Assembly: GCA_009779455.1 (NCBI GenBank)
Contig: WREG01000001.1
Span: forward strand, 1 to 30,831
Direction of reading: 5' to 3'
From: Oscillospiraceae bacterium
Lineage (GTDB): Bacteria; Bacillota; Clostridia; Oscillospirales; Acutalibacteraceae
Length of the DNA: 30,831 bases
Shown: piece by piece, positions 3,083 to 12,568 of the stretch
How the letters are laid out: every line of letters begins with the position of its first letter
Position numbering within the stretch: position 1 is the first letter of the stretch
Notes under the pieces: model-generated
Databases searched by the model: none
Seen by the model: the letters and a program-made list of their open reading frames with translations, nothing else
Told to the model about the DNA's origin: nothing
Program-made: the position numbers and the translations under genes

Positions 3083-3247
3083 GTGAAAAAATTAAAATTG
3101 TATTTGGATAACTGCTGTTACAACAGGCCTTTTGACGATCAGACTCAAATTGATTACACAAAATGGCAGAGGACATTATATGACGGCATGGAAATCGAAG
3201 AAATAAGCGGCAGGGCCATGGAAATTTACAACAATGTATATAAATAA
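3083..3247 (+). pseudogene. 54-aa chimera of a PIN-domain toxin N-terminus and the C-terminus of its usual partner; remnant of a deleted TA operon
   Basis: SD AGGTAGGGGG, GTG start. Translation MKKLKLYLDNCCYNRPFDDQTQI|DYTKWQRTLYDGMEIEEISGRAMEIYNNVYK. YLDNCCYNRPFDDQ is a PIN beta1 signature I recognise. DYTKWQR...MEIEEISGRAME matches the tail of small partner proteins that usually follow such PIN genes. Confidence 0.68.
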
Positions 3248-10533: not shown

Positions 10534-11130
10534 ATGCTGACGCACAAAGGAACCGTAACGCTGACAACAAAACGCCTGATTTTGCGCCGCCTTACAATTG
10601 ACGATGTCCCGGCAATGTTCAGGGATTACGCGACCGACGGCAAAATGACGAAATACCTGACATGGGAGCCGTATACGGACATGGAAAAACTGCGGGAATT
10701 TGTAGAAAAGCGCGTTGCCGATTATGAAAATATCATGTATTACCATTGGGCGGTCACAATGGGCGGCGAATTTATCGGGACAATAAATCTTCACGCTATA
10801 TTCGATGAAGCCGAACGTTGCGAGATGGGCTATTGCATAGGCTCAAAATGGTGGAACAAAGGCGTTATGACCGAAGCCGCTGCCGAGGTTATCCGCTTCG
10901 CTTTCGAGGAACTGAACGCCAACAAGGTAAGCGCTTCGCATGACACCCAAAACGCCGCGTCGGGCGCGGTCATGAGGAAAAACGGAATGAAACAGGAAGG
11001 GTTGTTGCGCGAGCATTCCATGAGAAAAGACGGCACGAGGGGGGATATGGCGTGTTACGCTATTTTAAGAAGCGAATGGGAGAAAATCAAGAATAAGAAA
11101 TATGAATATTTACCACTTCGGGAAAATTGA
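10534..11130 (+). CDS. RimJ/RimL-type GNAT acetyltransferase
   Basis: LTTKRLILRR, EMGYCIGSKWWNKGVMTEA, NAASGAVMRKNGMKQEG. Confidence 0.88.
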   Translation: MLTHKGTVTLTTKRLILRRLTIDDVPAMFRDYATDGKMTKYLTWEPYTDMEKLREFVEKRVADYENIMYYHWAVTMGGEFIGTINLHAIFDEAERCEMGYCIGSKWWNKGVMTEAAAEVIRFAFEELNANKVSASHDTQNAASGAVMRKNGMKQEGLLREHSMRKDGTRGDMACYAILRSEWEKIKNKKYEYLPLREN

Positions 11131-12001
11131 AAAGCCTCAGCGGGAATAGGCTGTTCCCAAGCCCTCGGCTTACTATCATTTTGTTGCAGAACGGTTCCTC
11201 TTCATATAATCCCGTATAATATTTCGGAAACAGCCCCTGCCCCGGGGCGGCAACCCCGCCGATAAACGGCAGTATGAACTGCCCGCCGTGGGCGTGGCCC
11301 GAAAGCATAAGGTCAAATTTATAATTTTTATAGGAATCCCCGCCGATAAGGGCGTAATGTTCCGGGTAATGGGATAAAACAATGTTGAACCCGCCCGTCT
11401 CGGACAGACGGCCGAGCAAGCCGCCGGAAGCCCGCAGGCTTTCGCCCGCTTCTTCTTCAAGCCCCAAAATATTCACTTTGTTCCCGTTGATATCGAAAGC
11501 CGCTGTTTCATTTGCCAATAAAATTATCCCTTTTTCGATGAGTTTGCCCGCGATCTCGTCCCTGCGCCCCGTATAGCCTTCATTATTGCCCAAAATGCAG
11601 GCCAGCGGCCATTCGCCGCTTAAAGATTCGATAAATTCGGCGGTCTCTTCAATATTTTTCGCGTTTTTATCAATAATATCGCCCGTTATAACGATAAGAT
11701 CGGGCGATTGTTCTTTAATGACATCATAAAGCCTGCGGCTGCCCTTGCCGAATTGCTTGCCGTGCAGGTCGGACAGATGGATAATGTTAAAAGGCGTTTC
11801 GATATGCGCCGATATGTTGACATCAGTGACCACAATATGATTGTTTTGATAATAAGCGAAAAAGATAAAAACTGCCGTTAAAATAAAAGCGCCGGCAATG
11901 AAAAACATCCGTTTATTTATCTTTTTTAAAGTCTTATTATCCTCGGTTTGCCAGTTGATATATTCTTTCAGCGCCCTTGGCGAAAAAATTGTATTATTCA
12001 T
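11087..12001 (-). CDS. Membrane-anchored calcineurin-like metallophosphoesterase (YkuE-like) with an N-terminal YoeB/Txe toxin fragment
   Basis: HLSDLH, TGDIID, GNNE, LSHYPE, SGHAHGGQ, VSRGLGNS motifs and a TM helix at about aa 32-51. Residues 1-30 (MNNTIFSPRALKEYINWQTEDNKTLKKINK) look like a YoeB/Txe N-terminus. Confidence 0.85.
   Translation of the reverse strand: MNNTIFSPRALKEYINWQTEDNKTLKKINKRMFFIAGAFILTAVFIFFAYYQNNHIVVTDVNISAHIETPFNIIHLSDLHGKQFGKGSRRLYDVIKEQSPDLIVITGDIIDKNAKNIEETAEFIESLSGEWPLACILGNNEGYTGRRDEIAGKLIEKGIILLANETAAFDINGNKVNILGLEEEAGESLRASGGLLGRLSETGGFNIVLSHYPEHYALIGGDSYKNYKFDLMLSGHAHGGQFILPFIGGVAAPGQGLFPKYYTGLYEEEPFCNKMIVSRGLGNSLFPLRLFNFPEVVNIHISYS
11912..12001 (-). pseudogene. 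Truncated YoeB/Txe-family toxin (first about 30 codons)
   Basis: Y..WQTEDxKTLKKIN pattern. Start overlaps the antitoxin stop (ATGAATAA), as in antitoxin-toxin operons. Confidence 0.72.
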
Positions 12002-12272
12002 TTTCCATCGCCTCCAGCTCTGCCATGGTTTTCACTATTACGTTTCCGGCATTTGCCTGAGCAATAGACTCTTCAAGGATTTTCATGTTGTATTCATTGA
12101 AATATTCGTCATACTTGTTTTTTGCCTTGATTTGAAACGGTATGGCCTGCTCCCGTATCGCCTGGCGGAAAAACACGTTAATAGCTCCGGATATGCTCAA
12201 CCCTAACAATGCAAACAGTGCTTCGGCGTCTCTTTTTACGTCATCTTCAATTCTAACGGTAATATTAGTCAT
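11994..12272 (-). CDS. RelB/DinJ family antitoxin, 92 aa
   Basis: MTNITVRIEDDVKRDAEALFALLGLSISGAINVFFRQAIREQAIPF (RHH signature). SD AAAGAGG. Start at 12272, not 12335. Confidence 0.88.
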   Translation of the reverse strand: MTNITVRIEDDVKRDAEALFALLGLSISGAINVFFRQAIREQAIPFQIKAKNKYDEYFNEYNMKILEESIAQANAGNVIVKTMAELEAMENE

Positions 12273-12303
12273 GATAAAAACCTCTTTGTTTATATTTGTA
12301 TTA

Positions 12304-12335
12304 ACATTATACGCTATTATAATGTGCTTTGCCAA
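12304..12335 (-). promoter_or_regulatory. TA promoter with palindromic operator
   Basis: TTGGCA (12335-12330), 18 nt, TATAAT (12311-12306). Inverted repeat ACATTATA (12304-12311), 6 nt, TATAATGT (12318-12325) overlaps the -10. Confidence 0.6.
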
Positions 12336-12364
12336 TACATTTATTCGTTTTTTAATATCTATTA

Positions 12365-12396
12365 ATAAATTCGGCGGTCTCTTCGATATTTCTCGC
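12365..12396. repeat. 32-bp direct repeat of an internal segment of the phosphoesterase gene (11631-11662)
   Basis: ataaattcggcggtctcttcgatatttctcgc versus ataaattcggcggtctcttcaatatttttcgc: 30/32 identical. Confidence 0.85.
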
Positions 12397-12516
12397 CTGT
12401 CTAAGTGTCATTCGGCGCAGGCGGGCTTTCGCCCTCCGAGGAGAATGGCAACGGCAGACGCAAAATAGGCCGCAAAGATACAATACTTTTAGTTGGGGGT
12501 TGGTATGGGTTTAAAT

Positions 12517-12551
12517 AAAGCTTCACCGCCCCTTGGGGGCAGTGAAGCTTT
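12517..12551 (-). terminator. Intrinsic terminator after the beta-helix gene
   Basis: AAAGCTTCAC-x-GCCCC / GGGGC-x-GTGAAGCTTT stem, with a G-U at the interrupted position on minus and TTTATTT following on minus. Confidence 0.75.
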
Positions 12552-12568
12552 CGTTCATAAAAGGGGGG

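What the first reader, a model, noticed from the sequence alone, without database searches (positions are those of the whole stretch)
11087..12335. TA promoter capture: YoeB/Txe toxin stub fused in frame to a membrane metallophosphoesterase
Behind an intact relB-like antitoxin with promoter and palindromic operator, the toxin position holds an ORF whose first 30 aa are YoeB-like. It then continues without a stop into a full phosphoesterase (TM helix plus all metal-binding motifs). The RNase C-terminus of the toxin is gone. The internal ATG at 11908 has no SD, so the enzyme probably depends on the toxin's start and falls under antitoxin autoregulation. The antitoxin might still bind the cytoplasmic stub. 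The enzyme also has GNNE instead of the usual GNHE. This is either neutral decay or a domesticated, stress-responsive regulatory arrangement (inference).
Basis: partly seen in the sequence, partly recalled or inferred. Interest (0 to 1): 0.72.

Follow-up and report, generated by a model that had tools for sequence, protein, structure and literature searches.

The report
Decayed toxin gene fused to phosphoesterase
In a termite-gut bacterium, a deletion destroyed the toxin of a toxin-antitoxin pair and joined its first 30 codons in frame to the next gene, a membrane phosphoesterase, which now has to use the pair's promoter and ribosome site; the join is real but is a one-off and looks like a by-product of ordinary toxin decay.

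Summary
ORF 11087-12001 (-) starts with 30 codons that match the N-terminus of intact YoeB toxins (24/30 identical to the closest). These codons lie behind an intact RelB antitoxin with the usual 8-nt start/stop overlap. The ORF then continues into a complete YaeI-like membrane metallophosphoesterase (MPE).

The homology break is at 11911/11910, 2 nt before an ATG (M32) that is probably the enzyme's native start. M32 has no Shine-Dalgarno sequence (-1.1 kcal/mol). The toxin start has a strong one (-9.3 kcal/mol). No room is left for a promoter of the enzyme's own.

A second assembler rebuilt 11170-12445 from the probable source run without any difference.

The fusion is unique among 5.8 billion proteins and about 115 related RelB loci. 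In those loci, toxin-killing deletions and frameshifts beside an intact RelB recur (about 15-25% of assessable loci). One relative has the likely precursor layout: the cassette lies 12 nt upstream of a co-directional gene.

GNNE is the norm in this enzyme subfamily (100 of the 120 closest homologues), not an oddity.

A 20-nt patch copied from inside the enzyme gene sits at the cassette's left edge, behind an 11-nt microhomology. It is a scar of illegitimate recombination.

I found no evidence that the arrangement was selected. The scan has noted host-gene stubs flanking such cassettes in other genomes.

The parts
12306..12335 (-). Promoter of the relB-yoeB cassette (TTGGCA, 18 nt, TATAAT). It is the only good promoter-like site upstream of the fused ORF.
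   Evidence: 11 of 12 matches. It is conserved in relatives L002, L005, L006 and L145.
12304..12325 (.). Perfect palindrome ACATTATA-N6-TATAATGT over the -10 box, the putative RelB operator.
   Evidence: Read. It is only partly conserved in relatives. Function is inferred.
11994..12272 (-). Intact RelB/DinJ-family antitoxin, 92 aa.
   Evidence: PF04221 36.9 bits; TIGR02384 62.7 bits. It is 87% identical to homologues that pair with an intact YoeB. All 23 invariant columns of 40 homologues are kept.
11912..12001 (-). yoeB stub: start codon and codons 1-30 of the toxin, with ATGAATAA overlapping the relB stop and a GGAGG SD 9 nt upstream.
   Evidence: 24/30 identical to the L005 YoeB; SD duplex -9.3 kcal/mol.
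11909..11912 (-). Breakpoint: cassette homology ends after ..AATAAAC (11911). GG (11910-11909) precedes the ATG of M32.
   Evidence: DNA alignment with three intact cassettes and L145.
11087..11908 (-). Complete YaeI-like metallophosphoesterase ORF counted from M32 (273 aa). With the stub it forms the 304-aa fusion ORF 11087-12001.
   Evidence: PF00149 55.5 bits. The NF008460 YaeI profile 4-269/271 aligns to aa 29-300. About 50% identical to stand-alone homologues of about 280 aa.
11852..11908 (-). Single N-terminal TM helix (aa 32-50) of the enzyme.
   Evidence: Hydropathy 2.37 over 19 aa. Aa 1-31 carry 7 K/R and 3 D/E, against 0 K/R after the helix. This suggests the stub is cytoplasmic and the catalytic domain outside (inference from the positive-inside rule).
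12365..12384 (-). 20-nt patch identical to 11631-11650 inside the MPE gene (codons about 117-123). An 11-nt near-match precedes it (12385-12395 against 11651-11661). It lies between the 122-nt element and the cassette's left edge.
   Evidence: 32 nt, 94%, E 2.9e-6 against the genome; three-way comparison with the C4 copy of the element.
12385..12506 (.). 122-nt repeated element of unknown nature that borders the locus. A second copy lies on contig C4.
   Evidence: 91% copy at C4:6563-6682. About 93% copies occur in two other termite-gut runs. No Rfam match.
12517..12552 (-). Hairpin (16-bp arms) after the upstream beta-helix gene, a likely terminator that would limit read-through into the cassette.
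   Evidence: (I2, 94% complementary) and the sequence. The terminator scan did not call it.

Best explanation
A horizontally spread relB-yoeB cassette came to lie directly upstream of a resident membrane metallophosphoesterase gene, in the same orientation. One or more illegitimate recombination events then removed yoeB codons 31 to the end, together with the enzyme's own promoter and ribosome-binding site. The break ends 2 nt before the enzyme's probable native ATG and happens to be in frame.

Shown: the toxin is dead because all catalytic parts are gone. RelB, its promoter, the palindrome and the toxin's SD and start codon are intact. The enzyme ORF is complete.

Inferred: the enzyme is now transcribed from the RelB-controlled promoter. 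It is translated from the toxin's start, coupled to relB, as a 304-aa protein with a 30-residue cytoplasmic extension. Homologues with variable N-termini suggest the family tolerates such an extension.

The arrangement is most likely a by-product of toxin-inactivating decay. It survived because it kept the enzyme expressed, not because it evolved as a regulatory device.
For: Stub and cassette homology with a sharp break at 11911/11910.

M32 as the native start: homologues have a median of 17 aa before the QNN motif, and this protein has 20 aa counted from M32. The YaeI profile starts at aa 29.

SD duplex energies are -9.3 kcal/mol at the toxin start and -1.1 at M32, against a median of -7.9 for 17 gene starts in the window. 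No promoter-like site lies on the minus strand between the relB start region (12250) and M32.

The nearest MPE homologues stand alone without any TA genes.

Toxin decay beside an intact RelB recurs. Of 57 assessable metagenome loci, 43 have a full YoeB, 7 a partial one and 7 none. Of 24 assessable genome loci the counts are 18, 4 and 2. Examples are in-frame internal deletions (L069, L073), stubs joined to unrelated sequence (L038, L079) and a frameshift (L145).

A precursor-like layout exists in L145, where the cassette ends 12 nt before a co-directional gene. In another locus the gap is 40 nt.

The cassette is AT-richer (0.36-0.39 GC) than its flanks (0.45-0.55). Near-identical RelB genes occur in several phyla of termite-gut MAGs.

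A Logan contig of 1276 nt spans 11170-12445 with 0 differences.

The fusion is unique in 5.8 billion proteins. No YoeB C-terminal remnant is found elsewhere in the MAG.
Against: There is only one genome and no close relative: the MAG is the only genome of its genus among the species representatives searched, and the best MPE in its family is 44% identical. Selection therefore cannot be tested.

The stub shows no extra divergence. Against L005, RelB is 86% and the stub 80% identical, which is within the spread of intact pairs. That fits a recent event, but it also fits constraint.

A simple single deletion does not explain the 20-nt MPE-derived patch at the left edge, so the history was more complex.

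No expression data exist. Read support comes only from the probable source sample, at about 5x depth.
Confidence: 0.66

Rival explanations
1. Domesticated regulatory module. The fusion is kept by selection because RelB autoregulation, relieved when the labile antitoxin is degraded under stress, gives useful stress-inducible expression of the extracytoplasmic phosphoesterase. The stub may still bind RelB as a co-repressor or tether.
For: RelB, its promoter, a perfect palindrome over the -10 box, the SD and the translational coupling are all intact. The enzyme is intact and is the only copy of its subfamily found in the MAG. The stub keeps the residues invariant in YoeB N-termini and has not diverged faster than in intact pairs. 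Orphan antitoxins are discussed in the literature as possible regulators (PMC7192599).
Against: The fusion is not found in any other genome, metagenome locus or protein searched. The same cassette family decays in many other ways without any fusion. All the intact features are equally expected shortly after a recent deletion.
Confidence: 0.12
2. The enzyme is functionally orphaned. The fusion protein is misfolded, mislocalised or barely made, and the gene is on its way to loss. Any activity comes from weak internal initiation at M32.
For: M32 lacks an SD. A 30-residue foreign segment with net charge +4 (7 K/R, 3 D/E) precedes the TM helix. MPE matches are missing from 16 of 40 related genomes searched, so the gene looks dispensable.
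Against: No stop, frameshift or loss of any invariant residue in 273 codons. Homologues carry N-terminal extensions of 0 to about 40 aa before the helix. The charge bias of the stub fits the normal N-in topology.
Confidence: 0.12
3. Assembly or binning chimera. The cassette, common in the termite-gut metagenome, was wrongly joined to the enzyme gene of another organism.
For: The source is a low-coverage MAG (about 5-9x), and many related cassettes occur in the same metagenomes.
Against: No repeat lies at the junction that could mislead a k-mer assembler. An independent assembly of the run (Logan) gives one contig across 11170-12445 with 0 differences. Neighbouring contigs have similar depth: 7.0, 5.3 and 8.8. 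MPE-derived sequence lies on both sides of the cassette, which a chimeric join would not produce. The break is in frame and lies exactly before an ATG.
Confidence: 0.05

Closest known systems
Degraded type II toxin-antitoxin loci with orphan antitoxins (for example the Klebsiella pneumoniae population survey, PMC7192599)
   Same: An intact antitoxin gene with promoter sits beside a toxin that has been lost or inactivated. The survey attributes such orphans to degrading TA pairs and raises possible new regulatory roles.
   Different: Here the toxin's start, SD and first 30 codons were reused as the 5' end of the next gene. I found no description of such a translational fusion in two literature searches.
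YefM-YoeB / Axe-Txe and RelBE / DinJ-YafQ operons (autoregulated type II TA systems)
   Same: Same gene order, overlapping stop and start, a promoter with an inverted repeat over the -10 box, a RelB/DinJ-type ribbon-helix-helix antitoxin and a YoeB-type toxin N-terminus. Intact relatives match solved YoeB structures 8yxv, 3oei and 2a6q.
   Different: The toxin keeps only the first 30 of about 90 residues. The conserved GKPEPLK, NR(L/I)(I/V)Y and C-terminal HY segments seen in relatives are deleted, so there is no RNase and no co-repressor of the usual kind.
E. coli YaeI phosphodiesterase family (NCBIfam NF008460) and calcineurin-like metallophosphoesterases (PF00149)
   Same: A full-length match to the YaeI profile (positions 4-269 of 271), all metal-binding motifs and an N-terminal hydrophobic helix.
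   Different: The score is 100.9 bits, below the equivalog cut-off of 188. The protein is about 50% identical at best to uncharacterised homologues and has no solved relative by sequence. It carries a foreign 30-residue N-terminus.
Bartonella Bep effectors derived from a FicTA toxin-antitoxin module (PMC5675462; title and abstract seen)
   Same: Part of a TA toxin gene became part of a larger protein by fusion.
   Different: There the toxin domain itself is retained and functional. Here only a non-catalytic stub is carried along.
TA/defence cassettes flanked by duplicated stubs of the neighbouring host gene
   Same: The cassette lies directly in front of a host gene, with host-gene sequence on both sides.
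   Different: Here the left-hand piece is only 20-32 nt from the middle of the gene, not a 5' stub. The toxin is truncated and fused.

Membership tests
Txe/YoeB toxin (PF06769, TIGR02116) | Complete RelE-fold domain of about 80-90 aa scoring above the curated cut-off | tested here: not met
   14.7 bits against a cut-off of 27, covering only profile positions 1-25 of 80. The intact relative L005 scores 84.8 bits on TIGR02116.
Txe/YoeB toxin (PF06769, TIGR02116) | Catalytic residues of the RNase (E. coli YoeB Glu46, Arg65, His83, Tyr84; from my own knowledge of the 2A6Q work) | tested here: not met
   Everything after residue 30 is deleted. The conserved GKPEPLK, NRxxY and HY segments of relatives have no counterpart.
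Txe/YoeB toxin (PF06769, TIGR02116) | Descent from a yoeB gene: position behind the antitoxin with overlapping start, and N-terminal sequence homology | tested here: met
   ATGAATAA overlap. 24/30 identical to the L005 YoeB, E 5e-17. Collinear cassette DNA.
RelB/DinJ antitoxin (PF04221, TIGR02384) | Score above the cut-offs, full length, conserved residues kept | tested here: met
   36.9 bits (cut-off 22.4) and 62.7 bits (cut-off 45.65). 92 aa like its homologues. 23 of 23 invariant columns kept.
RelB/DinJ antitoxin (PF04221, TIGR02384) | Binds its operator and represses its own promoter | not testable with these tools
   Only the promoter and the palindrome were seen.
Functional type II TA system | Active toxin neutralised by the cognate antitoxin | tested here: not met
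   The toxin is truncated to 30 aa. No remnant of the rest is found in the 83%-complete MAG.
Calcineurin-like metallophosphoesterase (PF00149) | Score above the cut-off and the metal-binding motifs DxH, GD, GNx(D/E), H, GH, GHxH | tested here: met
   55.5 bits (cut-off 21.5). D78/H80, G107-D108, G138-N139-N140-E141, H211, G235-H236 and H238 fall in invariant columns. The GNNE form is shared by 100 of the 120 nearest homologues.
YaeI phosphodiesterase equivalog (NF008460) | Score at or above the equivalog cut-off | tested here: not met
   100.9 bits against 188. The protein is YaeI-like only.

The most novel reading that the evidence does not exclude
The fusion is a working regulatory device. 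RelB, an unstable antitoxin left without its toxin, has become the dedicated stress-sensitive repressor of an extracytoplasmic phosphoesterase. The retained YoeB helices on the cytoplasmic face still bind RelB, so the enzyme's own abundance feeds back on its promoter. This would be a membrane-tethered remnant of conditional cooperativity.
Probability: 0.06. Interest if true: 0.6.

Novelty: new variant of a known kind. Interest (0 to 1): 0.3.

Why it matters
It is a clean natural example of how a selfish toxin-antitoxin cassette, after its toxin is destroyed, can leave its promoter, antitoxin-repressor and ribosome site in charge of a resident gene. That is one concrete route from addiction module to ordinary gene regulation. 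The comparison set also shows how often and in which ways this cassette family loses its toxin in termite-gut bacteria. As a single, unreplicated case in a low-coverage MAG it is a modest curiosity rather than a new principle.

Tried and rejected
- Complex prediction of RelB with the 31-aa stub gave no verdict (score 0.00). It says nothing about binding either way.
- No RNA run was listed as a holder of this stretch, so expression is untested.
- The lead that another RelB (P0129/P0241, 79% identical) is also followed by a Metallophos gene was followed to L145. That enzyme is an unrelated cytoplasmic MPE (BLASTP E 0.19). The adjacency is a parallel, not shared ancestry. It still serves as a precursor-like layout.
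- The YoeB-family hit on contig C55 is a different, complete toxin with its own antitoxin, not the missing C-terminus.
- The 122-nt element beside the cassette has no Rfam family and unremarkable folding (z -0.6 and -0.3). It is almost unmatched in 300 other genomes of the same order. I found no sign that it is a leader of the operon.
- A search of 5.8 billion proteins for other large proteins with this stub (region 1-40) found only the query itself. The search needs shared 5-residue words, so distant cases would be missed.
- No close relative genome exists among the species representatives, so conservation and dN/dS of the fusion could not be tested.
- I did not run a structure prediction of the fusion. 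The alignment-based motif check seemed enough.

Full report
**Setting.** The window is the whole of contig C1 of a 2.02-Mb MAG (282 contigs, 82.9% complete, 0.54% contamination). It comes from a termite-gut metagenome. The contig carries ordinary chromosomal genes around the finding, including prfB, several GNAT genes, a methyltransferase, iorAB, paaK-like, an MFS gene, DUF1846 and fhs. The MAG is the only genome of its genus among the species representatives searched.

**The observation.** On the minus strand, an intact 92-aa RelB/DinJ antitoxin (11994-12272; PF04221 36.9 bits, TIGR02384 62.7 bits) is preceded by a near-consensus promoter. The promoter is TTGGCA-18-TATAAT at 12335-12306. A perfect palindrome, ACATTATA-N6-TATAATGT, covers the -10 box at 12325-12304. 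The antitoxin's stop overlaps the ATG at 12001 (ATGAATAA). From that ATG a 304-aa frame runs to 11087.

Residues 1-30 of this frame align without gaps to the N-terminus of intact 89-90-aa YoeB toxins that follow close RelB homologues in other termite-gut contigs. Identity is 24/30 to L005 (E 5e-17) and 50-74% to three relatives. The cassette DNA is collinear with these relatives from about 12 nt upstream of the -35 box down to ..AATAAAC at 11911. Similarity then stops.

Intact relatives continue with LIKDILRNG and the conserved GKPEPLK, NRxxY and HY segments. These segments align with solved YoeB structures. The window instead continues with R-M-F-F-I-A-G, a TM helix (aa 32-50) and a complete metallophosphoesterase (PF00149 55.5 bits). 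The YaeI profile covers positions 4-269 of 271 but scores below the equivalog cut-off. Every column invariant in 14 homologues is kept.

**Corrections and additions.**
- GNNE is not an oddity. 100 of the 120 nearest homologues have GNNE and 18 have GNHE.
- M32 is probably the enzyme's native start. Homologues have a median of 17 residues before the conserved QNN motif, many starting directly with the helix. This protein has 20 residues counted from M32. The break thus lies in what was the 5' untranslated region, 2 nt before the ATG, and the enzyme ORF is complete.
- The toxin start has a strong SD (duplex energy -9.3 kcal/mol, top 2% of window background). M32 has none (-1.1). The median of 17 gene starts in the window is -7.9.
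- No promoter-like site lies on the coding strand between the relB start region and M32. The enzyme therefore has to be transcribed from the cassette promoter, or by read-through past the hairpin at 12517-12552. It is most likely translated from the toxin's start. This step is inferred from geometry and is not shown.

**Is the join real?** Logan's independent assembly of the run that holds 98% of the stretch's words gives one 1276-nt contig over 11170-12445 with no difference. This run is probably the source sample. Neighbouring contigs have similar depth: 7.0, 5.3 and 8.8. No repeat lies at the junction. Enzyme-derived sequence lies on both sides of the cassette (see the left edge, below), which an assembly chimera would not produce. 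Support from a second sample is lacking. I put the chance of an artefact at about 5%.

**How it arose.** The cassette is foreign-looking (0.36-0.39 GC against 0.45-0.55 in the flanks). RelB genes 80-87% identical occur in Chitinispirillia and Oscillospiraceae MAGs, and more distant ones in Treponema, Deferribacteraceae and other MAGs, mostly from termite guts. The closest enzyme homologues (about 50% identical) stand alone with no TA genes nearby.

I examined 80 metagenome loci and 29 genome loci with RelB relatives. The table gives the toxin's state in the assessable loci.

| Set | Assessable loci | Full YoeB | Partial YoeB | No YoeB |
|---|---|---|---|---|
| Metagenome loci | 57 | 43 | 7 | 7 |
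| Genome loci | 24 | 18 | 4 | 2 |

None of these loci has this enzyme downstream. The decayed loci show the toxin lost in several ways beside an intact RelB:
- Two different in-frame internal deletions leave mini-ORFs of 38 and 36 aa (L069, L073).
- N-terminal stubs are joined to unrelated sequence (L038, L079).
- One locus has a deletion plus a frameshift (L045).
- Some loci keep only C-terminal fragments (L067, L092).
- L145 has a 1-nt frameshift.

L145 is also instructive for layout. Its yoeB N-terminus is about 80% identical to the stub (my count from the sequences). The cassette ends 12 nt before a co-directional resident gene, with only an SD in between. That gene is by coincidence another, unrelated Metallophos protein.

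From such a layout, one deletion of roughly 200 nt would give exactly the window's structure. It would run from yoeB codon 31 to just before the next gene's ATG. The chance of landing in frame is one in three.

**The left edge.** Just upstream of the cassette lie 20 nt (12384-12365) that are identical to 11650-11631 inside the enzyme gene (codons about 117-123). They are joined to a 122-nt repeated element (12385-12506). The join falls where the element's end..GCGA(G/A)AAATAT, nearly matches the enzyme sequence GCGAAAAATAT. The other genomic copy of the element, on contig C4, continues differently after that point.

This patch is far beyond chance (E 2.9e-6 against the genome). It is a scar of illegitimate recombination. 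It could be a templated filler from a template-switch event. It could also be the remnant of a duplicated 5' part of the enzyme gene that a microhomology-mediated deletion later trimmed. I cannot decide between these. A single simple deletion is therefore not the whole history. Earlier notes of this scan describe TA or defence cassettes in other genomes flanked by duplicated stubs of the neighbouring host gene. I did not test those cases.

**Function.** What is shown:
- The toxin is non-functional.
- The antitoxin, promoter and coupling signals are intact.
- The enzyme ORF is complete, and it is the only member of its subfamily found in the MAG.

What is inferred:
- The product is a 304-aa N-in membrane protein with a lysine-rich 30-residue cytoplasmic extension and an external catalytic domain.
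- Its transcription is subject to RelB autorepression, and hence possibly to antitoxin turnover.

Nothing indicates that this was selected. The fusion is unique in 5.8 billion proteins. The stub's divergence is within the range of intact pairs, which fits either a recent event or constraint. No sister genomes are available. The RelB-stub complex prediction returned no verdict.

**Verdict.** This is a real and neatly interpretable gene fusion created by decay of a mobile relB-yoeB cassette. It is a new variant within the known phenomenon of degraded TA loci and orphan antitoxins (PMC7192599). Interest is modest unless RelB-dependent control or conservation is demonstrated.

Noticed in passing
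window 12385-12506; G000 C4:6563-6682 (L022 2564-2683): A 122-nt element occurs twice in the MAG at 91% identity. The second copy lies between a PEPCK gene and a PBP5-like gene. Copies about 93% identical with the same boundaries occur in two other termite-gut runs. It has no Rfam family, unremarkable folding, and only weak partial matches in 3 of 300 other genomes of the order.
   Followed up: partly
L069 395-535 and L073 1796-1930: Two metagenome contigs carry the same YoeB N-terminus (MIENISFTLEGLKDYIHWQTEDKK..) with different in-frame internal deletions. The mini-ORFs are 38 and 36 aa and keep the C-terminal HYDD. They sit beside an intact RelB, so the same cassette lineage lost its toxin independently at least twice.
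   Followed up: partly
L145 4001-5311: A RelB (79% identical to the window's) is followed by a yoeB with a 1-nt frameshift after codon 13. Twelve nt after the toxin's stop comes a co-directional 240-aa cytoplasmic Metallophos gene unrelated to the window's enzyme, then a PGA_cap gene.
   Followed up: yes
window 11087-11130: The GNAT gene (10534-11130, +) and the phosphoesterase gene (11087-12001, -) converge and overlap by 44 nt. The GNAT has a tail of about 20 aa beyond its Pfam domain that reads into the enzyme's 3' end.
   Followed up: no
window 3083-3247: A 54-aa ORF begins like a PIN-type toxin (MKKLKLYLDNCCYNRPFDDQ..) and ends 14 nt inside folC. If so, this contig holds a second decayed TA locus abutting a housekeeping gene.
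   Followed up: partly
G000 C55:125-424 (L108): A separate, complete 99-aa YoeB/Txe-like toxin lies behind a partial antitoxin ORF at a contig end. The MAG also has six RelB-family antitoxin genes, so it is rich in TA loci.
   Followed up: partly
L116-L144: Near-identical relB-yoeB cassettes occur in termite-gut MAGs of several phyla (Chitinispirillia, Oscillospiraceae, Treponema, Deferribacteraceae, Desulfovibrionaceae and others). This indicates wide horizontal spread within that habitat.
   Followed up: partly
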